DNA of 11,748 nucleotides, taken from positions 1 through 11,748 of the forward strand of contig JAZSEI010000114.1 in assembly GCA_045531635.1 (NCBI GenBank), read 5' to 3'. Origin of the DNA: Acutalibacteraceae bacterium. Lineage in GTDB: Bacteria; Bacillota; Clostridia; Oscillospirales; Acutalibacteraceae. Made by a program: the position numbers and the translations under genes. Below, in pieces: positions 143 through 9,818 of the stretch. Position 1 is the stretch's first letter. Each line of letters starts with the position of its first letter. Below the pieces are notes generated by a model. That model had not been told where the DNA came from. It made no database searches and was given only the letters and a program-made list of their open reading frames with translations.

Positions 143-212
143 ACACGATTTAAAACTATATTTTAAAATAATTAGTCAAAAATATATTTGTTATCTTAAT
201 GAGGTGAATGCA

Positions 213-1460
213 ATGTCATCATATAGCGAGCTTATAAAAAATTTTGATAAAATACGCAGTTATATGCGTGAATTCTATGTATATGGTTTTAAGAGTCGTG
301 AGGAATATACCAAAAAAAGCGCTCGTTCTTATGATGACGAGCGTAGAAGAATAGAAAGCTGGCTTGGTGATTATATGAGCTTTGTACGCACTCCAGAAGG
401 TAAAAATTTATTTATTTCCATTGATAGCCGTGTTTCACAGCATAACCCATTCTATAAAGCACTAAAGGCCAAAAGCTTTACTGATAAAGATATAACTCTG
501 CACTTTATTTTGTTTGATATACTTCATTCGTCAGAAGTGGTTATGTCATTGGCTGAAATACTAGAGCAAATAGATGAATATTTAGCTGTTTTTGAAGCAC
601 CAATGATGTTTGATGAATCTACTGTAAGAAAAAAGCTAAAAGAATATATATCACACAGTATAATTGAAGTTCAAAAAGTTGGTAGAAAAATGTTGTATCG
701 ACGTTCCGATAAAATTGCTTTGCCAGATATAACTGATGTGCTGAATTTCTATTCAGAGATTGCCCCTTGTGGTGTTATTGGTTCTTTTTTACTTGATAAG
801 CAAGAAAAGCAAAGCGATAGTTTTAGTTTCAAGCACCACTACATAACCTCTGCAATAGATAGTGATGTAACAGCAACACTGTTTAAAGCAATGCACGAAA
901 AAAGTATTATTAGCGTTGATAACCTGAGCCGTCGTGAAGTTGAGCCACAAAAAAACAGAATCATACCTTTGCAGATTTTTATCAGTGTTCAGAATGGAAG
1001 ACAGCACTTACTAGCTTATCAGCCAGATTTTAATGTAATTAAATCATTTAGAATTGATTATCTATCTAATGTGAAAATCGAATCACCAACACCCCGTTTT
1101 GATGAATTAAGAGCAGAGCTTGATAAGATGAAGTCGAAAATGTGGGGTGTTTCAACAAAGAGTCAACACTTTAACGCATTTGAGCATGTTGAGTTTACTG
1201 TTAAGATTGCTGATGACGAAGAGCATATTGTCCAAAGACTTGAACGAGAGAAGCGGGTAGGGCAAATAGAAAAGCTTGATGATAACACATATCGTTTTAT
1301 GGCAGATGTTTATGACATAAGCGAAATGATTCCTTGGATACGAACTTTTATTTGCAGAATAACCGAGCTTACTTTTTCTAATAAAGAACTTGAAAAGAGA
1401 TTTAAAAAGGATATAAAAGATATGTATCGTATTTACGGAATTGAAGAGGTGGTGGTATGA
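213..1460 (+). CDS. WYL-domain transcriptional regulator with four parts: an N-terminal extra domain (~90 aa), a DeoR/HTH_11-like winged HTH (~aa 95-170), a WYL domain and a C-terminal WCX-like extension
   Basis: The ORF track gives a GTG at 204. I prefer the ATG at 213, which follows the RBS GAGGTGA (201-207) by 5 nt. HTH-like segment: LAEILEQIDEYL...FDESTVRKKLKEY...IEVQKVGRKMLYRR. WYL-like segment: RIIPLQIFISVQNGRQHLLAYQPDFNVIKSFRIDYLSNVKI, with HLLAY where WYL normally sits and FRIDYL in place of the usual FRldRI motif. WCX-like tail: MIPWIRTFICRITELTF. The stop overlaps the next start (ATGA at 1457-1460). Confidence 0.7.
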   Translation: MSSYSELIKNFDKIRSYMREFYVYGFKSREEYTKKSARSYDDERRRIESWLGDYMSFVRTPEGKNLFISIDSRVSQHNPFYKALKAKSFTDKDITLHFILFDILHSSEVVMSLAEILEQIDEYLAVFEAPMMFDESTVRKKLKEYISHSIIEVQKVGRKMLYRRSDKIALPDITDVLNFYSEIAPCGVIGSFLLDKQEKQSDSFSFKHHYITSAIDSDVTATLFKAMHEKSIISVDNLSRREVEPQKNRIIPLQIFISVQNGRQHLLAYQPDFNVIKSFRIDYLSNVKIESPTPRFDELRAELDKMKSKMWGVSTKSQHFNAFEHVEFTVKIADDEEHIVQRLEREKRVGQIEKLDDNTYRFMADVYDISEMIPWIRTFICRITELTFSNKELEKRFKKDIKDMYRIYGIEEVVV

Positions 1461-2368
1461 TATTTAACGAAATTTACTCTGCCTACTATAATACAGTAGC
1501 CAAAATCATTACAAGTGTCTTAAACGATAATACTGACGAGAAGACTATAAATAGAATAGTTAGTGAAAATGCTTTTGCCGAAAGTGTGCTAAGTATTTTG
1601 CCTTCGCTCAAAAGTGAAAAATGGCAGCTTTTAAAAGCAGATATGACTACTCCTATTCAACATATACCTACAATGCCGTTAACACTAACTCAAAAACAAT
1701 GGTTAAAGGCAATTTCGTTAGACCCACGAATAAAATTGTTTGATATAGATTTTTCATCTCTTGACGGTATTGAACCACTGTTCACATCAGATGATTATTG
1801 CATCTATGACAGATATAATGATGGAGACCCATACGAGGATGAAGAGTATATCAAAAGATTTCAGATTATTCTGTCAGCTTTAAAGGAGAAACAATCACTT
1901 AAAATACAGATGATTAATCGTAAGGGGCATAGCTCTTCAGTTTTAGTTGTTCCACAAAGACTAGAATATTCAGAAAAGGATGATAAATTTCGCATTATAA
2001 GCACAGGATGTCGTTACGGAGCAACTATAAATCTGGCTCGTATCACATCGTGTGAAAAATGCTGTACTTCTAAAATTGTCACTCATAGTGCTTCTCTATC
2101 CTCAAAAGAAGTGTTAACACTCCGTATATTCGATGAACGTAATACTCTAGAACGATGTTTGTTGCATTTTGCACATTTTGAAAAACAAGTAGAACGAATT
2201 GATGAAAATATGTATCTGGTCTATCTTAAATACAATAAAGCAGATGAAACTGAAATTGTTATTCGTGTTTTGAGCTTTGGACCTATGGTTGAAGTGATAG
2301 AGCCTAATCATTTCAGGAAGTTAATAATAGAGCGTTTAAGAAAACAAAAAAGCTGTGAACTTAATTGA
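1457..2368 (+). CDS. Second WYL-domain protein (WYL plus WCX-like C-terminus). Its N-terminal region has no obvious canonical HTH. It is a paralogous partner of the upstream regulator, in a PafB/PafC-like tandem arrangement
   Basis: Start is coupled to the upstream stop (ATGA), with RBS GAGGTGG just upstream. WYL-like segment: SSVLVVPQRLEYSEKDDKFRIISTGCRYGATINLARITSCE. C-terminus FGPMVEVIEPNHFRKLIIERLRKQ matches the familiar fG..veVleP..lr tail of WYL/WCX proteins. Confidence 0.7.
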   Translation: MIFNEIYSAYYNTVAKIITSVLNDNTDEKTINRIVSENAFAESVLSILPSLKSEKWQLLKADMTTPIQHIPTMPLTLTQKQWLKAISLDPRIKLFDIDFSSLDGIEPLFTSDDYCIYDRYNDGDPYEDEEYIKRFQIILSALKEKQSLKIQMINRKGHSSSVLVVPQRLEYSEKDDKFRIISTGCRYGATINLARITSCEKCCTSKIVTHSASLSSKEVLTLRIFDERNTLERCLLHFAHFEKQVERIDENMYLVYLKYNKADETEIVIRVLSFGPMVEVIEPNHFRKLIIERLRKQKSCELN

Positions 2369-2384
2369 GTTCGCAGCTTTTTTT
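2346..2384 (+). terminator. Rho-independent terminator ending the WYL gene pair
   Basis: AGCTGTGAAC (2351-2360) pairs with GTTCGCAGCT (2369-2378): a 10-bp stem with one G-U, an 8-nt loop that contains the TGA stop, an A-run before and a T6 run after (2379-2384). Confidence 0.6.
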
Positions 2385-2396
2385 CCGTGTTATATA
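2369..2396 (+). promoter_or_regulatory. Candidate extended -10 promoter (TGtTATATA, 2388-2396) with a weak -35 (TTCGCA, 2369-2374) for the leader/SPFH/rtcB transcript
   Basis: The TGn-TATATA motif lies immediately after the upstream terminator. The -35 is poor, so confidence is low. Confidence 0.25.
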
Positions 2397-2399
2397 AGG

Positions 2400-2840
2400 A
2401 ATATATTGGTAAAATATCCTTGCAAGGTTACTTCAAGCGTGTGTATAAAATTAACCTACACTGCGGTGCACAAGGCTATGCCAAAGTGTATGCCAGAAGA
2501 ATCACTTGCTCCCTGGCAATAGGATATATGCCAGTTATGTTTTTTGATATCTAACGAGGCTCAAAATCTCAAAAGAAATGTGGGTTAGAAAACCACAACC
2601 ATTGTAATGTGCAAAAGCACACCAAACACTATCACAAAAAAGCAATTACTCTGCTGATGAATAGAAATTACTTTTCGTTAGCAATGTGCGAGTTGCCTTG
2701 CTTGAGAATGGATACCGTGTTTCAAACATATAAGCCAAAAGCTTTCTTTCCGCTTATATGTGCGATCACTTAAATTTTCAACCGTAATTGGTGCATGAGT
2801 AATTGCTGATGCAATTTAACCTTTAGGAGGATTATATATT
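2400..2840 (+). other. Long (~440 nt) non-coding leader or candidate structured RNA upstream of the SPFH-rtcB genes. It contains the palindrome CCTTGCAAGG and several direct-repeat motifs
   Basis: No ORF with an RBS is present. GC content is visibly higher than in the other intergenic regions of the window. Palindrome at 2418-2427. TATGCCA occurs three times (2477, 2488, 2527). ATGTGCGA occurs twice (2684, 2758), with AATGTGCAA at 2605. Confidence 0.3.
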
Positions 2841-3944
2841 ATGAAGAAAATTATTATTAACGAAAAACAAAGAGGACTACTATTTAAAAACGGAAAATAC
2901 ATAAAAATGCTTACTGCTGGCAAATACTATGCTTGTGGTGGAAAAGAAATAGAGGTATTAGATATGACTGAATTTCCAGTTACATCTGGTAACTGCGAAT
3001 TAGAAACTCTTCTAAAAGACAAAGCTGTTGCAGATTCTGTAGTTGTAGCTGACGTAGGTGACCAGGAAATAGCACTTCATTTTATTAATGGCAAATTTAA
3101 AGATGTTTTGCTTCATGGTAAATATGCTTTTTGGTCAATTATTGATAAGCACGAATTTAAGATTGTTGATAAATCTCAGACAGAGGTATCAGATGACGTG
3201 CCAGAATATATTTTTTCAAGAATGGCACCTCTTTACTATACTAAGATTGAGGTTTTAGAGTATCAGAAGGTACTGCTATATTTCAATCAGAAGTTTGTAA
3301 AGATTCTTGATGCAGGTACATATTATTTTTGGAGAAACGGTGTTAAGATTGATACAAGATGTGTTGATACCCGACTAACACAGATGAATATTACTGGACA
3401 GGAGATATTAACTCAGGATAAGGTTTCTTTACGCATTAATTTTGTATGCAATTACCGTGTAACAGATTATGTGAAGATACATACCGAGATTGATAACTTC
3501 ACCGAGCAAATGCATGTGGCTGCACAGCTTGCTTTGCGTGAGTATGTAGGAAAATATAAGCTTGACGAGATTTTGGAAAACAAAGTAGAAATGTCTGAGT
3601 TTGTATTTGCTAAGTTAAAAGCGAAAGAAAAGGAGCTTTTTATTGAGATTACAGACGCTGGTGTAAAGGACATTATTTTACCAGGAGAAATTCGTGAAAT
3701 AATGAACACTGTACTGGTTGCAGAAAAACGTGCACAGGCAAATGTAATTACTCGTCGAGAAGAGGTTGCCTCTACCAGATCATTGCTGAATACAGCAAAG
3801 CTGATGGACGAGAACAAAACACTCTACAAGCTCAAGGAGCTTGAGTATATTGAGCGTATCTGTGAGAATGTTGGTAATATCAACCTTAACGGGAATACAG
3901 ATGTACTAACACAGCTTACAGGTATACTCAAGGGTAACACATAA
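2841..3944 (+). CDS. SPFH/band-7 (stomatin/prohibitin/flotillin/HflKC) domain protein, 367 aa. It has no N-terminal TM helix. About 190 aa of N-terminal sequence is made of three tandem ~60-aa repeats that resemble the first beta-hairpin segment of the SPFH fold
   Basis: Strong RBS AGGAGG 8-10 nt upstream of the ATG at 2841. SPFH core: QEILTQDKVSLRINFVCNYRVTDYVK...DAGVKDIILPGEIREIMNTVLVAEKRAQANVITRREEVAS. The three repeats are RGLLFKNGKYIKMLTAGKYYA, IALHFINGKFKDVLLHGKYAFW and VLLYFNQKFVKILDAGTYYFW. Confidence 0.8.
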   Translation: MKKIIINEKQRGLLFKNGKYIKMLTAGKYYACGGKEIEVLDMTEFPVTSGNCELETLLKDKAVADSVVVADVGDQEIALHFINGKFKDVLLHGKYAFWSIIDKHEFKIVDKSQTEVSDDVPEYIFSRMAPLYYTKIEVLEYQKVLLYFNQKFVKILDAGTYYFWRNGVKIDTRCVDTRLTQMNITGQEILTQDKVSLRINFVCNYRVTDYVKIHTEIDNFTEQMHVAAQLALREYVGKYKLDEILENKVEMSEFVFAKLKAKEKELFIEITDAGVKDIILPGEIREIMNTVLVAEKRAQANVITRREEVASTRSLLNTAKLMDENKTLYKLKELEYIERICENVGNINLNGNTDVLTQLTGILKGNT

Positions 3945-4012
3945 ACAATGTCATCACCATTTGATAACTGTTAAAGATTTAAACGGTGTTGTTACAAAGA
4001 AAGGAAATTTTT

Positions 4013-5221
4013 ATGATAGAGATAAAAGGTAAGTTTAATACTGCTTTATGCTATACAAACGAACTTGAGCCTACTGCTTATGCTCAAATTGAAGCAGTGT
4101 GCAACGAAAAGGCTTTCGAAAATTCTAAAATCCGTATAATGCCTGATGTTCACGCTGGTAAGGGCTGTACAATTGGTACCACAATGACTATTGTTGATAA
4201 GGTTGTACCCAATATGGTTGGTGTTGATATTGGTTGTGGAATGTATACTGTAAGCTTAGGTAAGATTGATATTGACCTTGCAAAGTTTGATGAGGTTGCA
4301 CATTCTATTCCTTGTGGCAGAAATGTTTGGGAGGGCAGACAAGAACGCTTTGATTTAACACAGCTTCGTTGTTATAGAAATCTTAAGGATACTAGAAGAC
4401 TAGAGAGAAGCCTTGGCACCTTAGGAGGAGGTAACCACTTTATCGAAATTGATACTGATGAAAATGGAAATAAGTATTTAATAATCCACTCTGGCAGTCG
4501 TAATCTTGGTACACAGGTTGCTGAGTTTTATCAAACCATTGCAGTTGATTTGGATCTAGGCAAAGAGGAGTATTTTAAAAAGCGTGACGAAATCATTAGC
4601 ACATATAAGCAACAGGGTAGAAGAAGTGAAATTCAATCCACCTTAAAGCAACTAGCGAAGGAATGGGAAGAGAAGTCCCCGACAATGCCTAAAGAGCTTT
4701 GTTATCTTTTCGGTTCATTTATGGACGACTATCTACACGATATAAATATCTGTCAGCAATTTGCAAAGCGTAACCGTGAGAAAATGGCTGAGATTTTGCT
4801 ACTAAAGACAGGTATTACAGGTTTTGAAGCATTTCAGACTATCCACAATTATATTGATGTAGATGAAATGATTCTGCGTAAGGGCTCTGTTTCTGCTAAG
4901 AAAGGAGAAAAGCTGTTAATTCCGATTAATATGCGTGATGGTAGTCTTATCTGTATTGGTAAGGGTAATTCAGAGTGGAACTACTCTGCACCTCACGGAG
5001 CAGGTCGCTTAATGTCTCGTTCCGTTGCATTTGAAAAGCTTACTATGGAAGAGTACCAAAAGCAAATGGCAGGTATTTATACTACTTGTGTAAATACTTC
5101 TACTCTAGATGAGTCACCTATGGCATATAAAAATATGGATGATATTATAGCAAATATTGAACCTACTGCCGAAATTATTGCACATATCAAGCCAATTTAT
5201 AATTTTAAGGCTGCAGAATAG
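4013..5221 (+). CDS. rtcB: RtcB-family RNA 3'-phosphate/2',3'-cyclic-phosphate ligase (402 aa)
   Basis: Diagnostic RtcB motifs are present: MPDVHAGKG, GVDIGCGMY (Asp/Cys metal ligands), GGGNHFIEID, HSGSRNLG and APHGAGR (the His that is guanylylated). I prefer the ATG at 4013, with RBS AAAGGAAA 7 nt upstream, over the GTG at 3986 in the ORF track. There is no terminator between the SPFH gene and rtcB, so they are probably co-transcribed. Confidence 0.9.
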   Translation: MIEIKGKFNTALCYTNELEPTAYAQIEAVCNEKAFENSKIRIMPDVHAGKGCTIGTTMTIVDKVVPNMVGVDIGCGMYTVSLGKIDIDLAKFDEVAHSIPCGRNVWEGRQERFDLTQLRCYRNLKDTRRLERSLGTLGGGNHFIEIDTDENGNKYLIIHSGSRNLGTQVAEFYQTIAVDLDLGKEEYFKKRDEIISTYKQQGRRSEIQSTLKQLAKEWEEKSPTMPKELCYLFGSFMDDYLHDINICQQFAKRNREKMAEILLLKTGITGFEAFQTIHNYIDVDEMILRKGSVSAKKGEKLLIPINMRDGSLICIGKGNSEWNYSAPHGAGRLMSRSVAFEKLTMEEYQKQMAGIYTTCVNTSTLDESPMAYKNMDDIIANIEPTAEIIAHIKPIYNFKAAE

Positions 5222-5292
5222 CAATGTGTAGAAATTTTTAATTTTATATGGTACAATATGTTAAACTATAAATTATATGTGATGGTGGCAAA

Positions 5293-5886
5293 ATGATCAA
5301 TGTGATATGCAATCGTAGAAGTATTAGGAAATATTTAGATAAACAAGTTCCAAAAGAAATGATAGAACAAATTATCGAAGCAGGAAGAATGTCACCTTCT
5401 GCTAAAAATCGACAACCTTGGAAGTATGTTGTTCTTGGTGGTGAACATAAATCTGATTTTCTCAAGCATATGAAGAAAGGAATTTTGAGAGAAGAAAGCG
5501 AGCTTGCTCTGTTACCTAATTCTCGTAATGGAATTTCAGACGCAAATAACACATTGAGCATTATGCAACAGGCACCAATTATCATTGCTGTTTTAAATAC
5601 TAATGGGAAAAATCCATTTGATATAATCGATGTTGATAATAGATTTGTTGAGATTTTCGATACACTTTCTATTGGTGCATCAATCCAAAATATGTTGTTA
5701 AAAGCAACTGAAATTGGCTTGGGAACTTTGTGGATTGCTAACACTTGTTACGCATACAAAGAATTAACAGAGTATCTTGATACAACTTATCAGTTAGTAG
5801 GTGCAATAGCACTTGGTTATGCTGACGAAGCACCAAAGCAAAGACCAAGAAAAAAGTTAGAAGATATTGTAGAATATAGATTATAA
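5293..5886 (+). CDS. Nitroreductase-family flavoprotein (197 aa)
   Basis: N-terminus RRSIRKY...SPSAKNRQPWKYVV is the classic nitroreductase FMN-binding signature. A possible extended -10 (TGgTACAAT) lies upstream. Confidence 0.85.
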   Translation: MINVICNRRSIRKYLDKQVPKEMIEQIIEAGRMSPSAKNRQPWKYVVLGGEHKSDFLKHMKKGILREESELALLPNSRNGISDANNTLSIMQQAPIIIAVLNTNGKNPFDIIDVDNRFVEIFDTLSIGASIQNMLLKATEIGLGTLWIANTCYAYKELTEYLDTTYQLVGAIALGYADEAPKQRPRKKLEDIVEYRL

Positions 5887-6152: not shown

Positions 6153-6593
6153 ATGCAAATAGAAATCAGCATTGACGCAAAATATAAGATTCCCAAAATC
6201 ATAATAAAAACAGACAGAATAACAGATGAGGTCAATGAGGTTATGAAAAAGCTTTCAGACGACTCACCAAAGGTTATTACTGGATTTAAGGATGATTGCG
6301 TAGAGGTTCTTGAGCCTGAGCGAATTTACCGTTTTTATTCAAGCCAAGGCAAGGTTTTTGCTGTGACAGATAATGGGGAGTATACAGTAAGAACTCGACT
6401 TTACGAGATTGAGGAGCAGATGTGCTTACCAAAATTTGTAAGAGTGTCAAATTCAGAAATAATTAATCTGAAAAAGGTCAAAAATTTTGACCTGAGCTTA
6501 GCAGGCACAATCTGTGTGCAGTTTTCTGACGGCTCTGACACTTATGTGTCAAGAAGATATGTATCAAAAATCAAAAAAATATTAGGTATATGA
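6153..6593 (+). CDS. Stand-alone LytTR-family DNA-binding regulator (146 aa, no receiver domain)
   Basis: LytTR-like pattern: IIIKTDRITDEVNEVMKKL...IYRFYSSQGKVFAVTDNGEYTVRTRLYEIEEQM..FVRVSNSEIINLKKVKNFD..VQFSDGSDTYVSRRY. RBS AAGGGGGA 7-8 nt upstream. Confidence 0.75.
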   Translation: MQIEISIDAKYKIPKIIIKTDRITDEVNEVMKKLSDDSPKVITGFKDDCVEVLEPERIYRFYSSQGKVFAVTDNGEYTVRTRLYEIEEQMCLPKFVRVSNSEIINLKKVKNFDLSLAGTICVQFSDGSDTYVSRRYVSKIKKILGI

Positions 6594-6602
6594 GGTGTTT
6601 TT

Positions 6603-7058
6603 ATGTTTAAAGAAATTTTAAAAAGAAGTGTATTAAGTGCGTTAGGTGGTTTGTTTATTACTCAGCTTGTAGGTGTTATTGTTTCACTATGTATAGCAGA
6701 TGGCAATTATTATCCTGTTGTGCCTTCACTTACAGAGAGTATAGGTAGCGAAATCGGTGCAGTTATATTCCAGACAGTTTGCTCATTGTTGTATGGTGCT
6801 GTATTTGGTGGTATGTCAATAATATGGGAGCTGGATAATTGGAGTATTTTAAAACAAACAGTAGTTCACTTTTTAGTGGTTTCTTTTGTAAGCTTTCCTA
6901 TTGCATATGTTACCGAGTGGATGGAGCATTCTATAGTTGGAGGAATTACTTACTTTGCTGTATTTGCAGTAATTTACGCATTCATATGGTTTAGTCAATA
7001 CATAAGTGTAAGAAAGCGTATAAATGAAGTAAATAAAAAGCTTAACCAAACAGCTTGA
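6603..7058 (+). CDS. Small 4-TM membrane protein (151 aa), DUF3021-like. Probably the membrane inhibitor partner of the LytTR regulator, analogous to HdrM/BrsM
   Basis: Four hydrophobic helices are visible. RBS GAGGTG overlaps the upstream stop, indicating translational coupling. A LytTR gene followed by a small polytopic membrane protein is the recurrent streptococcal LRS architecture. Confidence 0.6.
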   Translation: MFKEILKRSVLSALGGLFITQLVGVIVSLCIADGNYYPVVPSLTESIGSEIGAVIFQTVCSLLYGAVFGGMSIIWELDNWSILKQTVVHFLVVSFVSFPIAYVTEWMEHSIVGGITYFAVFAVIYAFIWFSQYISVRKRINEVNKKLNQTA

Positions 7059-7456: not shown

Positions 7457-7603
7457 TTAAGAAAAGGTGTAAAATTCACCATGTATTTTTTGCTGTATCA
7501 TAATAAATAAAAAAGATTGCCCTTAAAGATTATCGTTCGATTTGAGAAGCAACTTATAAAATAAAGATTTGTATAAATACTAAAAAACAGAGAGGTGTAT
7601 CAA

Positions 7604-9211
7604 ATGAAAATTCAATTTATAGGAGCAGTTCACGAGGTAACAGGAAGCTGTACTTTGCTCGAAGTAAATGAGAAAATTTATTTAGTAGATTGTGGTATGG
7701 AACAAGGAATAGATGTTTTTCAGAATATTGCTTTACCTGTTCCAGCAAATTCTATTGAAGCTGTGTTTTTAACTCATGCACATATCGACCATTCAGGAAT
7801 GTTACCAAAGCTGTATAAGGATGGATTTAAAGGCTCGATATATGCTACAGATGTAACTTGTGATTTGTGCAATATTATGCTGAGAGATTCTGCTTATATT
7901 CAAGAATCAGAGGCAAAATGGCAATCCAAGAAAGAACAGCGAGCAGGTAGAGAGTCTGTGGAGCCAACATATAATATGCAAGACGCAATCGGAGCTATCT
8001 CGTGTTTTCGTAGATGTAATTACGGTGAATTGGTTTCTGCAGGTGAAGGTGTAGAAATCAGGTTTACAGATGTTGGACATCTTTTAGGCTCTGCCTGTAT
8101 TGAAATTTGGCTTTCAGAGGGTGAAATAGAGAAGAAGATCGTATTTAGTGGAGATGTAGGAAACATAAATCAGCCTATTATTCGTGACCCACAGTTTGTT
8201 GAAGAAACTGATTATCTTGTTATTGAGTCCACATACGGAAATCGTCTGCATAATGAGAATAAAAGTAATGTAGTAAACGAGCTAGCAGAATATATTCAAC
8301 AGGCATTAGATAGAGGAGGTAATGTGATAATCCCTTCATTTGCAGTGGGTAGAACTCAAGAGCTGTTGTATACTATCCGTGAAATAAAGCAAAAAGGATT
8401 AGTAACAGGGCACGAACATTTTCCTGTATATGTAGACAGTCCTCTTGCAGCAGAATCAACAGCTATATTTATGCAGTGTAATCCAATTTGCTTTGATGAA
8501 GAAACTATTGCGTTAATAAAGGAAGGGATAAATCCAATTTGGTTTGATGATATATATATGACAGTTACCTCTGAGGAATCTAAACAGATTAATTTGGATA
8601 AAAAAGCTAAGGTTATTATTTCTGCAAGTGGAATGTGTGAGGCAGGAAGAATTCGCCATCATCTAAAGCATAATCTTTGGCAGGAAAATAATATTATTCT
8701 TTTTGTAGGTTATCAAGCAGAAGGCTCATTAGGCAGAAAACTGATAGAGGGAGCAAAAACAGTAAAGCTTTTTGGAGAAGAAATTGCTGTAAATGCACAA
8801 ATTTGCACACTACACGGTTCTAGTGGTCATGCAGACTGTGATGGACTTATTAACTGGGTTTTAGCATTTAAAGAAAAGCCAGAATTGATATTTGTAAATC
8901 ACGGAGATGATAGTGCCTGTGAAGACTTCAAAAAATTATTGATTGAAAAAGGTTATATGGCAGATGCTCCATATAGTGGTACAGAGTATGACCTTGCTAC
9001 AGGAAAAATGACAGTTTATACAGAAGGCAAATTAATTGACCGAGTACAGCTGTTTAAGGGTAATAAACGTGCTAATATGCTTTATAATGATCTTGTATCA
9101 GAAGCAGAAAGACTACTTGCATTAGCTAAAGAACGTAAGGGTAGAGCTAATAAAGATAATGCTAAGCTCACTTCTCAAATTCGAGAGCTAATTGAAAAAT
9201 GGAAAGATTAA
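7604..9211 (+). CDS. Beta-CASP family MBL-fold ribonuclease (RNase J/CPSF73-like RNA-metabolising metallo-beta-lactamase) with a ~100-aa basic/coiled C-terminal tail
   Basis: MBL motifs: LVDCGM, HAHIDHSG, VGHLLGSA, FSGDVG. Beta-CASP motifs: ESTYG...and GSSGHAD. I prefer the ATG at 7604, with RBS AGAGAGGTG 6 nt upstream, over the GTG at 7595. Confidence 0.8.
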   Translation: MKIQFIGAVHEVTGSCTLLEVNEKIYLVDCGMEQGIDVFQNIALPVPANSIEAVFLTHAHIDHSGMLPKLYKDGFKGSIYATDVTCDLCNIMLRDSAYIQESEAKWQSKKEQRAGRESVEPTYNMQDAIGAISCFRRCNYGELVSAGEGVEIRFTDVGHLLGSACIEIWLSEGEIEKKIVFSGDVGNINQPIIRDPQFVEETDYLVIESTYGNRLHNENKSNVVNELAEYIQQALDRGGNVIIPSFAVGRTQELLYTIREIKQKGLVTGHEHFPVYVDSPLAAESTAIFMQCNPICFDEETIALIKEGINPIWFDDIYMTVTSEESKQINLDKKAKVIISASGMCEAGRIRHHLKHNLWQENNIILFVGYQAEGSLGRKLIEGAKTVKLFGEEIAVNAQICTLHGSSGHADCDGLINWVLAFKEKPELIFVNHGDDSACEDFKKLLIEKGYMADAPYSGTEYDLATGKMTVYTEGKLIDRVQLFKGNKRANMLYNDLVSEAERLLALAKERKGRANKDNAKLTSQIRELIEKWKD

Positions 9212-9236
9212 ATTGAAAATTCAGGAGAATGAAAGT

Positions 9237-9818
9237 ATGAGAATATGTGTATATGGTGCAGCGTCGCCAACTATTGACGATATCTACAAAGAAAAGGTAG
9301 AACATTTGGGTAAAGTAATGGTACAGCGTGGTCATTCACTTGTATTTGGTGGTGGCGGCAAAGGCTTGATGGGAGCCGTTGCGAATGGTGTTCATTCGGC
9401 TAAAGGTCATATTATTGGCGTAATACCACAATTTTTCTTAGATGAAAAAATAGAAGCAGTATGTGAGTTTTGCGATGAAATGATACTTACCGAAACAATG
9501 CGTGAACGAAAACAAATTATGGAGGATAATGCAGACGCTTTTATTATAGTACCAGGTGGTATTGGAACATACGAAGAGTTTTTTGAAATACTAACATTAA
9601 AGCAACTGTGTCGTCATAATAAACCAATTGTTATTTATAATATCGAAGGATATTATAATGAAATTGAAACAGCAATGAATGAAGCAATAAGAAAGAATTT
9701 TATAAAAGATAGTTGCGTAGAACTGTATGAAGTTACTGATGAGCTGGACAAATTATTTGAATGTGTTGAAAATACTCAGCAAAAAATAAGAACAGTAAAA
9801 GAGCTTAAAGATGGCTGA
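9237..9818 (+). CDS. LOG-family (TIGR00730-type Rossmann fold) nucleotide 5'-monophosphate nucleosidase / cytokinin-riboside phosphoribohydrolase-like protein (193 aa)
   Basis: GGGGKGLMGAVANG and VPGGIGTYEEFFE are the LOG signatures (the PGGxGTxxE motif). I prefer the ATG at 9237, with RBS AGGAGA 8 nt upstream, over the ORF-track start at 9192. It lies 25 bp after the RNase stop and is probably co-transcribed. Confidence 0.8.
   Translation: MRICVYGAASPTIDDIYKEKVEHLGKVMVQRGHSLVFGGGGKGLMGAVANGVHSAKGHIIGVIPQFFLDEKIEAVCEFCDEMILTETMRERKQIMEDNADAFIIVPGGIGTYEEFFEILTLKQLCRHNKPIVIYNIEGYYNEIETAMNEAIRKNFIKDSCVELYEVTDELDKLFECVENTQQKIRTVKELKDG

What the first reader, a model, noticed from the sequence alone, without database searches (positions are those of the whole stretch)
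2841..3944. SPFH/band-7 protein with a triplicated N-terminal beta-hairpin segment and no membrane anchor
Canonical SPFH proteins (HflK/C, YqiK, stomatin) begin with a TM helix followed by one e.gvv.rfGk....l.pGlhf.iP segment that leads into the SPFH core. Here the segment occurs three times in tandem (aa ~10-30, ~75-97, ~140-163), each followed by an acidic/beta-rich stretch of about 40 aa. Only the third copy runs into the SPFH core (QEILTQDKVSLRINF...). No hydrophobic helix is present anywhere in the protein.

This is an unusual, probably cytosolic SPFH architecture. The repeats might form an extended beta-sandwich, or an oligomerisation/cargo-binding platform. A speculative role is scaffolding RtcB or its substrates.
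Basis: seen in the sequence. Interest (0 to 1): 0.65.

Follow-up and report, generated by a model that had tools for sequence, protein, structure and literature searches.

The report
Soluble SPFH protein with triplicated N-terminus
This gene encodes an anchor-less stomatin-like (SPFH) protein whose first beta-sheet module is repeated three times; it belongs to a large family, already described computationally, that sits beside a tRNA-like RNA and usually the RNA ligase RtcB, so it is real and interesting but not new.

Summary
ORF 2841-3944 encodes a 367-aa Band_7/SPFH protein with three significant tandem copies of the SPFH N-terminal beta segment (aa 2-44, 67-113, 133-176). Only the third copy runs into the SPFH core, and no segment is hydrophobic enough to be a TM helix.

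AlphaFold models each copy as a five-stranded beta unit (pLDDT about 90). The units are duplicates of the SPFH domain's own N-terminal beta subdomain, not a foreign domain.

The architecture is common, not rare:
- 493 clusters at 50% identity match at E<=1e-30.
- At least 541 matching stretches were found in a collection holding one genome per species.
- NCBI names the protein "slipin family protein".
- Unit number varies among relatives: 3, 4, 5, 7 or 9.

Among Clostridia the cassette is conserved: two WYL regulators, a ~470-nt non-coding region holding a tRNA-like element, the SPFH gene, then RtcB. Distant Acidobacteria keep only a tRNA gene plus the SPFH gene.

This matches the "Band-7 / b7a-tRNA / RtcB" RNA-repair systems of Burroughs and Aravind (2016), as later papers describe them.

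The most likely role is a membrane-free oligomeric scaffold, vault-like in layout, acting with the tRNA-like RNA and RtcB. That role is inferred, not shown. The window's own tRNA-like element is degenerate.

The parts
2841..3944 (+). Gene for the 367-aa soluble SPFH/Band-7 protein (NCBI name for close homologues: slipin family protein)
   Evidence: ORF and translation. Pfam Band_7 E 4e-31. Closest solved relatives by sequence are stomatins, E 9e-15 for the single sequence and 1e-30 for the family profile.
2844..2972 (+). Beta unit A (aa 2-44): first extra copy of the SPFH N-terminal beta subdomain
   Evidence: Strands at aa 2-6, 10-16, 19-24, 27-31 and 35-41 in the AF2 model, pLDDT about 90. 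Detected by the unit HMM. 50% identical to unit C over 28 aa.
3039..3179 (+). Beta unit B (aa 67-113): second extra copy
   Evidence: Strands at aa 67-72, 76-82, 85-90, 93-98 and 104-110. Unit HMM 27.6 bits against a shuffle maximum of 6.0.
3237..3368 (+). Beta unit C (aa 133-176): the canonical N-terminal beta subdomain that leads into the SPFH core
   Evidence: The Pfam Band_7 match starts at aa 141, profile position 6. The family profile aligns to stomatin from profile position 136 onward.
3369..3683 (+). SPFH alpha/beta core (aa 177-281)
   Evidence: Pfam Band_7. Foldseek matches mouse stomatin SPFH domains at rmsd 1.7-2.0 A over about 107 columns.
3684..3941 (+). Long C-terminal helices (aa 282-306 and 314-343) plus the C-terminal tail; the presumed oligomerisation region, as in other SPFH cages
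   Evidence: Helices in the AF2 model. pLDDT is below 50 for aa 302-344, as expected for a monomer model of a segment that packs between subunits. This region aligns to the stomatin C-terminal region. An oligomerisation role is inferred from solved SPFH cages.
2369..2840 (+). Conserved non-coding region between the second WYL gene and the SPFH gene. Block 1 is about 2369-2510 and block 2 about 2690-2840.
   Evidence: blastn and nhmmer find both blocks, always on the + strand, in at least 70 of 80 related loci. Alignment.
2371..2415 (+). Putative operator plus extended -10 promoter: TCGCAGCTTTTTTTCCGTG at 2371-2389, TG at 2407-2408, TAAAAT at 2410-2415
   Evidence: These bases are invariant across loci. 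The same element is repeated immediately upstream of RtcB in L045, L051 and L069, where it is followed by a ribosome-binding site. Function is inferred. The generic promoter scan did not list it.
2486..2596 (+). Degenerate tRNA-like element: 5' acceptor-like GTGTATGCC at 2486-2494; anticodon-arm-like hairpin GAGG-CTCAAAA-TCTC at 2556-2570; T-arm-like GTGGG-TTAGAAA-ACCAC at 2580-2596
   Evidence: It is homologous by position to the tRNA-like elements of related loci. In the window, model R1 gives only 14.3 bits for 2486-2532 and 3.7 bits for 2556-2596. ARAGORN and Rfam find nothing.
2727..2760 (+). Hairpin in block 2 with a conserved loop: CATATAAGC-[CAAAAGCTTTCTTTCC]-GCTTATATG
   Evidence: The stem changes on both sides in L014 (CAGTGC...GCACTG) while the loop is kept. 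This was seen by eye in a six-sequence alignment and not tested statistically.
3986..5221 (+). RtcB-family RNA ligase gene, 41 nt downstream of the SPFH stop codon
   Evidence: Pfam RtcB E 2.6e-57. RtcB lies downstream on the same strand in 53 of 64 loci with enough flank, and within 300 nt in 47. No terminator-like site was found in 2300-5400.
204..2368 (+). Two overlapping genes for WYL/WCX-domain proteins (204-1460 and 1457-2368), the presumed paired transcription regulators of the cassette
   Evidence: Pfam WYL and WCX, PADLOC WYL models. They are present upstream on the same strand in 47 of 53 loci with enough flank.

Best explanation
The protein is a soluble member of the stomatin branch of the SPFH superfamily. 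The small beta subdomain that normally opens the SPFH domain has been duplicated in tandem, giving three units here and 3 to 9 in relatives. These units replace the usual membrane anchor.

By analogy with every solved SPFH protein, it most likely assembles through its SPFH core and long C-terminal helices into a ring or cage. Here the cage would not sit on a membrane, and the stacked beta units would lengthen its wall. This is the same layout as the major vault protein (beta repeats, SPFH "shoulder", cap helix).

It is made from a WYL-regulated promoter together with a structured leader that carries a tRNA-like element, and usually together with RtcB. The most likely job is to act as a scaffold or compartment for the tRNA-like RNA and for RNA repair by RtcB, or by RlaP in some relatives.

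Shown: the repeat, the lack of an anchor, the fold, the size of the family, and the conserved neighbourhood.
Inferred: oligomerisation, RNA binding, and a role in repair.
For: - Repeat and absence of an anchor.
- Fold: the full-length AF2 model has pLDDT about 90 for aa 1-280 with three five-stranded units. The N-terminal model alone has pLDDT 87.6 and pTM 0.75.
- Cage-forming relatives: Foldseek matches to stomatin, HflK/C, prohibitin, erlin, QmcA, flotillin and MVP cages at E 3e-14 to 1e-8. MVP chains align over 403-453 columns, gaps included.
- Copy number varies among relatives (3, 4, 5, 7, 9 units), as expected for a modular wall element.
- Genomic link with RtcB: 53 of 64 loci. The same invariant promoter/operator element precedes RtcB where the two genes are separated.
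- tRNA-like partner in Clostridia: a canonical T-arm in 71 of 72 loci, with stems that differ on both strands between loci. Covariance model R1 gives matches at E<=1 in the gap of about 70 of the 80 loci, 14 of them the model's own seeds; most span the whole model.
- tRNA partner in Acidobacteria: in 4 of 4 loci with unrelated neighbours, a tRNA gene (Rfam 59-69 bits) lies 215-330 nt upstream on the same strand.
- RlaP, a Pfam RNA-repair nucleotidyltransferase family, directly follows homologues in L083 and L067.
- Literature: Band-7 protein plus b7a-tRNA next to RtcB (10.1101/312249). [quoted passage not shown] Both cite Burroughs and Aravind 2016.
Against: - There is no experimental evidence for this family.
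- The protein is slightly acidic (pI 6.1; N-terminus 5.9), so direct RNA binding is not suggested by charge.
- Oligomeric state could not be modelled.
- The window's own tRNA-like element is degenerate: no ARAGORN or Rfam hit, and 14.3 bits for a partial match to model R1. In this genome the RNA partner may be altered or lost while the protein stays intact.
- RtcB is missing beside 11 of 64 Clostridial loci and all 4 Acidobacterial loci.
Confidence: 0.6

Rival explanations
1. The conserved upstream RNA is only a cis-regulatory leader, for example a tRNA-mimicking sensor or attenuator of the SPFH-rtcB mRNA. It is not a partner of the protein. The SPFH protein would then have some other cytosolic scaffolding role that merely responds to the same stress signal.
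For: The element lies on the same strand between a promoter-like site and the SPFH ribosome-binding site, with no terminator-like site detected. The whole ~420-nt leader is conserved, not just the tRNA-like part. In the window the tRNA-like part has decayed while the gene is intact.
Against: In Acidobacteria the partner scores as a full tRNA (59-69 bits). It stays 215-330 nt upstream of the SPFH gene in four unrelated neighbourhoods, which is more typical of a separate RNA gene kept with its protein. In loci where RtcB carries its own copy of the promoter element, the RNA stays with the SPFH gene and not with RtcB.
Confidence: 0.2
2. It is an ordinary membrane-microdomain stomatin that attaches peripherally to the membrane through its beta units. 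The adjacency to RtcB is not functional.
For: The SPFH core is closest to stomatins. In the solved cages other than the vault, the assembly abuts a membrane (paper text). One family representative, P0255, has an N-terminal TM helix in front of three units.
Against: There is no hydrophobic or lipobox-like segment and no NfeD partner gene in the window. Synteny with RtcB, RlaP and a tRNA-like RNA is conserved across phyla. The promoter element is shared with RtcB.
Confidence: 0.1
3. It is a true orthologue or ancestor of the eukaryotic major vault protein and forms closed vault particles.
For: The order of parts is the same: beta repeats, SPFH domain, long helix. Foldseek matches to MVP chains reach E 7e-11 over more than 400 columns. 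A later paper calls the RtcB-linked bacterial proteins "MVP homologs". Association with a small structured RNA recalls vault RNA.
Confidence: 0.07

Closest known systems
Band-7 protein / b7a-tRNA / RtcB RNA-repair systems predicted by Burroughs and Aravind (Nucleic Acids Res 2016). The paper is not held in the library, so it is known here only through 10.1101/312249 and PMC13404743.
   Same: A Band-7 protein is encoded next to RtcB together with a predicted tRNA-like non-coding RNA. A scaffold or cofactor role in RNA repair is proposed. Here the cassette is conserved in 53 of 64 loci, and the tRNA-like element is present in nearly all relatives.
   Different: I could not check how that paper delimits the family or whether it describes the repeated N-terminal units. 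The window's own tRNA-like element is degenerate. In this clade the cassette also carries two WYL regulators and a long structured leader.
Stomatin (human stomatin; Pyrococcus PH1511) and other membrane SPFH cage proteins (HflK/C, prohibitin, erlin, QmcA, flotillin)
   Same: Same SPFH core and following helices. Stomatin is the best sequence match (E 1e-30 with the family profile) and the best fold match. The third beta unit corresponds to the normal start of the domain.
   Different: There is no TM helix or membrane hairpin and no NfeD partner. There are two extra copies of the N-terminal beta subdomain. NCBIfam HflK and HflC scores are far below their cut-offs: 39.4 against 159.4 and 15.7 against 134.4.
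Major vault protein (MVP) of eukaryotic vaults
   Same: Membrane-free SPFH protein with a run of small beta-sheet repeats in front of the SPFH "shoulder" and a long helix behind it. It is linked to a small structured RNA. Foldseek aligns the whole model to MVP chains.
Ro60 (Rsr) / Y RNA (YrlA) / RtcB operons of Salmonella and other bacteria
   Same: A non-enzymatic protein plus a tRNA-like non-coding RNA is encoded beside RtcB. This was proposed to be functionally interchangeable with the Band-7/b7a-tRNA pair.
   Different: The protein fold is unrelated (TROVE ring against SPFH). No Rfam Y RNA or YrlA match was found in the window.

Membership tests
SPFH / Band-7 superfamily (Pfam PF01145) | Significant match to the Band_7 profile | tested here: met
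   108.8 bits against a cut-off of 23.6, aa 141-308.
SPFH / Band-7 superfamily (Pfam PF01145) | Alpha/beta SPFH fold followed by long helices | tested here: met
   AF2 model. Foldseek matches to stomatin, HflK, prohibitin and erlin at E 3e-14 to 1e-9; rmsd 1.7-2.0 A to mouse stomatin SPFH domains.
SPFH / Band-7 superfamily (Pfam PF01145) | Assembly into a large ring or cage | not testable with these tools
   No multimer modelling or experiment was available. Inferred from solved relatives only.
Canonical membrane SPFH proteins (stomatin, HflK/C, QmcA) | N-terminal TM helix or membrane hairpin | tested here: not met
   Maximum 19-residue Kyte-Doolittle mean is 0.94. Among the 120 closest homologues the median maximum is 1.06.
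Canonical membrane SPFH proteins (stomatin, HflK/C, QmcA) | Partner gene (NfeD for stomatin/QmcA) or equivalog score (HflK/HflC) | tested here: not met
   None of the ten proteins of the window scanned has an NfeD domain. TIGR01933 scores 39.4 against 159.4; TIGR01932 scores 15.7 against 134.4.
Band-7 / b7a-tRNA / RtcB RNA-repair system (Burroughs and Aravind 2016, as described) | Band-7 protein encoded next to RtcB | tested here: met
   RtcB starts 41 nt after the SPFH stop codon. The arrangement is conserved in 53 of 64 loci.
Band-7 / b7a-tRNA / RtcB RNA-repair system (Burroughs and Aravind 2016, as described) | tRNA-like non-coding RNA encoded beside the Band-7 gene | tested here: inconclusive
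   Met in relatives: T-arm in 71 of 72 loci; model R1 matches in the gap of about 70 of 80 loci, 14 of them seeds; Rfam tRNA 59-69 bits in 4 of 4 Acidobacterial loci. In the window there are only degenerate remnants: 14.3 bits for a partial match, and a T-arm with a mismatch and an altered loop.
Band-7 / b7a-tRNA / RtcB RNA-repair system (Burroughs and Aravind 2016, as described) | The original paper's own definition of the Band-7 clade and its domain architecture | not testable with these tools
   The paper (PMC5062991, 10.1093/nar/gkw722) is not held in the library.
Major vault protein family | Sequence match to MVP repeats or the MVP shoulder | tested here: not met
   Pfam gives only Band_7, even at E<=10. 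No MVP hit with the family profile against PDB sequences at E<=10. hhalign against human MVP gives E 0.12, probability 0.5%.
Major vault protein family | Structural similarity of the N-terminal units to MVP repeat domains | tested here: inconclusive

The most novel reading that the evidence does not exclude
The family forms membrane-free SPFH cages ("bacterial mini-vaults") whose wall height is set by the number of duplicated beta units (3 to 9). The cage holds or presents the tRNA-like RNA. In many loci that RNA carries a GUN-type anticodon loop, like the tRNAs cut by colicin-E5-type anticodon nucleases (the nuclease target is my own knowledge). The RNA would act as a decoy, a sensor or an assembly platform for RtcB-mediated tRNA repair. 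The repeats of the eukaryotic vault protein would have arisen by the same duplication of the SPFH N-terminal subdomain. That would make this cassette a tractable bacterial model for vault function.
Probability: 0.2. Interest if true: 0.8.

Novelty: new member of a known kind. Interest (0 to 1): 0.4.

Why it matters
Apart from the vault, the solved SPFH cages sit on membranes, and the vault's function is still unknown. A 2026 paper still describes the vault as "lacking a clear prokaryotic ancestry".

This family is abundant and anchor-less. It has an adjustable number of N-terminal beta modules, and it is genetically tied to a tRNA-like RNA and to RNA-repair enzymes. It is therefore a practical system for asking what a soluble SPFH cage does with RNA.

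The idea itself was published in 2016 as a prediction. What this window adds is one more member. It also yields some family-level details: the copy-number series, the WYL-controlled promoter shared with rtcB, and the tRNA-plus-SPFH core pair kept across phyla.

Tried and rejected
- ARAGORN and Rfam on the window, over the whole window and over the gap alone at E<=10, found no tRNA, Y RNA or other family.
- The Rfam tRNA model does not reach its cut-off on the Clostridial tRNA-like elements. It does so only on the Acidobacterial ones.
- Covariance model R1, built from 14 minimal tRNA-like elements, finds most relatives. In the window it gives only a 14.3-bit partial match.
- The generic promoter/terminator scan listed neither the conserved promoter-like site nor the hairpin after the second WYL gene.
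- PADLOC has no defence-system model for the SPFH protein; only generic WYL hits appeared. PHROGs gave only a weak SPFH-core hit.
- Membership of the MVP family by sequence is rejected.
- HflK/C identity is rejected.
Context of distant members therefore comes only from 4 viral contigs and 4 Acidobacterial loci.
- Burroughs and Aravind 2016 could not be read.
- An early idea that the repeat is a two-unit [A-B] module was dropped, because relatives with 4 units exist.

Full report
**1. The observation**

ORF 2841-3944 (+) encodes a 367-aa protein preceded by AGGAGG at 2825-2830. Pfam finds one Band_7/SPFH domain, aa 141-308, at 108.8 bits.

The N-terminal 176 residues contain three related segments. 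Pairwise local alignment scores are 45, 68 and 56, against about 21 +/- 4 for shuffled sequence. This gives z = 6.6 to 11, and 0 of 2000 shuffles reach the observed scores.

A profile was built only from the SPFH-proximal segment of 100 other family members. It finds aa 2-30, 68-110 and 133-178 at 30.9, 27.6 and 64.6 bits. The best of 1000 shuffles is 6.0 bits.

No 19-residue window exceeds a Kyte-Doolittle mean of 0.94. The one refinement is that each copy is a ~45-aa five-stranded beta unit followed by a short, partly helical, acidic linker, not a single hairpin.

**2. What the units are**

- AlphaFold2 with 117 homologues gives pLDDT about 90 for residues 1-280. It models three equivalent sets of five strands, then the SPFH core and long helices.
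- The N-terminal 132 residues modelled alone give pLDDT 87.6 and pTM 0.75.
- Residues 1-135 alone match the first 56 positions of the Pfam Band_7 profile in two stretches (E 6e-4).
- Foldseek gives the same ranking, with no hit better than E 0.2.

The extra units are therefore duplicates of the SPFH domain's own N-terminal beta subdomain. I know this subdomain as "SPFH1" from the HflK/C and flotillin structure papers; that name is my own knowledge, not a tool result. The N-terminus is not an unrelated known domain.

**3. How common it is**

The protein is one of a very large family.
- 7924 of the 8000 scored candidates pass E<=1e-3. The top 120 are 57-100% identical and mostly 366 aa. Those named by NCBI are called "slipin family protein".
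- Against one representative per 50%-identity cluster, 493 clusters pass E<=1e-30. Most of the top 150 match the full length, down to 28% identity.
- A scan of a collection with one genome per species gave at least 541 matching stretches, all in Clostridia. Named species include Oscillibacter valericigenes and Robinsoniella peoriensis.
- A second large branch occurs in Acidobacteria.
- Unit number varies: 3 in most, 4 (428-445 aa), 5 (about 500 aa), 7 (626-638 aa) and 9 (787 aa).
- One representative, P0255, has a clear N-terminal TM helix in front of three units.

**4. Surroundings**

In 80 Clostridial loci the cassette is two WYL/WCX genes, a gap of about 450-650 nt, the SPFH gene, then RtcB.
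- RtcB lies downstream on the same strand in 53 of 64 loci with enough flank, and within 300 nt in 47.
- The WYL pair lies upstream in 47 of 53.

The gap is conserved non-coding sequence in two blocks, found in at least 70 of 80 loci and always on the SPFH strand.

Block 1 starts with the 3' half of the hairpin after the second WYL gene. It then carries an invariant TCGCAnnTTTTTTTCCGTG, and about 18 nt further a TGnTAAAAT extended -10 motif. The same element is repeated just upstream of RtcB, followed by a ribosome-binding site, in loci where SPFH and RtcB are about 700 nt apart. I read this as a shared WYL-controlled promoter. That is an inference.

Downstream of it, 71 of 72 loci carry a canonical T-arm: a 5-bp stem with a TTCGAAT-type loop. 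The stems differ on both strands between loci, for example GCGGG/CCCGC, GTGGG/CCCAC, GCAGG/CCTGC, GCCGG/CCGGC and GTAGG/CCTAC.

The shortest forms, about 75 nt, fold as acceptor, anticodon-like and T arms. A covariance model built from 14 of them gives matches at E<=1 in the gap of about 70 of the 80 loci, the 14 seeds included. ARAGORN calls three of them tRNAs.

**5. Distant members**

- In four Acidobacterial loci with unrelated neighbours and no RtcB, a tRNA gene (Rfam 59-69 bits) lies 215-330 nt upstream of the SPFH gene on the same strand.
- Of four viral contigs, one has 35 tRNA genes directly upstream of the homologue.
- Another has RlaP, the Pfam "RNA repair pathway DNA polymerase beta family", overlapping the homologue's stop codon.
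- RlaP also follows the SPFH gene in L067.

The most constant partner of the protein is therefore a tRNA or tRNA-like gene. RNA-repair enzymes are frequent but not obligatory neighbours.

**6. The window's own RNA element**

The window and its nearest relative for this region, L004, carry a divergent version.
- The 5' part, GTGTATGCC..., is kept (2486 onward).
- The T-arm reads GTGGG-TTAGAAA-ACCAC (2580-2596), against GTGGG-TTCGAAC-CCCAC in L004.
- The 3' acceptor strand seen in the other aligned loci is missing.
- Model R1 gives only 14.3 bits for a partial match.
- ARAGORN and Rfam find nothing.

Whether this RNA is still functional cannot be decided here.

**7. Mechanism**

The closest solved proteins, by sequence and by fold, are cage-forming SPFH proteins: stomatin, HflK/C, prohibitin, erlin, QmcA, flotillin and the major vault protein. 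The C-terminal helices have low pLDDT in the monomer model, as expected for a segment that packs between subunits.

The best-supported reading is a homo-oligomeric ring or cage that is not attached to a membrane, with its wall extended by the stacked beta units. The order of parts is the same as in MVP: beta repeats, SPFH shoulder, cap helix. Foldseek aligns the full model to MVP chains over 403-453 columns.

By sequence, however, the protein is a stomatin relative and not an MVP family member.

Co-regulation and synteny point to a role with the tRNA-like RNA and RtcB in RNA repair. No tool result shows binding, assembly or activity. The protein's pI of 6.1 does not suggest direct RNA binding.

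**8. What is known**

Two held papers summarise Burroughs and Aravind (2016).
- In some bacteria RtcB is encoded next to a Band-7 protein and a predicted tRNA-like RNA, b7a-tRNA, proposed to be functionally interchangeable with Ro60/YrlA (10.1101/312249).

I could not read the original paper. The finding is therefore a correct rediscovery of a predicted but experimentally untouched system.

**9. Verdict**

Novelty: a new member of a known kind. Interest is moderate (0.4). The family is attractive as a bacterial handle on soluble SPFH cages and vault-like ribonucleoproteins, but the central idea is already in the literature.

Noticed in passing
window 2369-2840; L001-L080 at the equivalent position: The whole ~470-nt spacer upstream of the SPFH gene is conserved non-coding sequence with several hairpins whose stems change on both sides between loci. 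It includes a tRNA-like element. The window's copy of that element is degenerate.
   Followed up: partly
L008, L009, L011-L014, L016, L026, L027, L029, L033, L043, L046, L047 and others (anticodon-like hairpin just 5' of the T-arm): In about 16 of the 61 loci tabulated, the anticodon-like loop reads CUGUNAA or a close variant. The anticodon position is GUC (8), GUA (4), GUU (3) or GUG (1). These are the four GUN tRNAs (Asp, Tyr, Asn, His). From my own knowledge, they are the targets of colicin-E5-type anticodon nucleases, whose products are RtcB substrates. Other loci have different loops or a second T-arm-like hairpin (UGGGG-UUCAACU-CCCCG).
   Followed up: partly
L045 7136-7236, L051 7135-7235, L069 1085-1185; window 2371-2415: The invariant TCGCAnnTTTTTTTCCGTG plus TGGTAAAAT element upstream of the RNA/SPFH unit is duplicated directly in front of RtcB wherever the two genes are about 700 nt apart. 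This suggests one regulator, presumably the WYL pair, controls both.
   Followed up: partly
L085 5623-5698, L086 5596-5668, L087 2628-2698, L088 2713-2787: In four Acidobacterial loci a normal-looking tRNA gene (Met, Thr, Pro, Met anticodons; Rfam 59-69 bits) sits 215-330 nt upstream of the SPFH homologue on the same strand. There is no RtcB, and the neighbours are otherwise unrelated.
   Followed up: partly
L081 33-4551 and 4986-6098 (IMG/VR contig IMGVR_UViG_3300007072_000340, 94 kb): A viral contig carries an array of 35 tRNA genes that ends about 430 nt before a 370-aa homologue of the triplicated SPFH protein (34% identity). An HNH endonuclease gene lies inside the array.
   Followed up: partly
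L083 1293-2093; L067 7123-7887; L082 6387-7016: RlaP (PF10127, RNA repair pathway DNA polymerase beta family) directly follows the SPFH homologue in a viral contig (L083) and in one Clostridial locus that lacks RtcB (L067). In L082 an Nmad2 (nucleotide modification associated) gene lies about 280 nt downstream.
   Followed up: no
proteins P0002, P0003, P0094, P0128, P0121 and others: The number of N-terminal beta units varies among relatives (3, 4, 5, 7, 9). L075, a 5-unit form, sits in the same WYL-RNA-SPFH-RtcB cassette.
   Followed up: yes
protein P0255 (416 aa): One family representative has a strongly hydrophobic N-terminal helix (MMELIAKLIIFLLILILLYVLLKLIF, Kyte-Doolittle 3.2) in front of three units. 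It may be a membrane-anchored relative or a transitional form.
   Followed up: no
window 7595-9818: A beta-CASP/RMMBL metallo-beta-lactamase RNase gene (7595-9211) overlaps by 20 nt a LOG/SLOG-family gene (9192-9818). Both are on the same strand as the cassette. They are not conserved next to it in the related loci.
   Followed up: no
window 6153-7058: A LytTR DNA-binding protein gene (6153-6593) is followed 10 nt later by a DUF3021 membrane protein gene (6603-7058). This is a likely two-gene regulatory pair, unrelated to the finding.
   Followed up: no
window 3986-4013: The mechanical RtcB ORF starts at GTG 3986. An in-frame ATG at 4013 (MIEIKGK...) may be the real start. Either way the gap after the SPFH stop codon is under 70 nt.
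   Followed up: no
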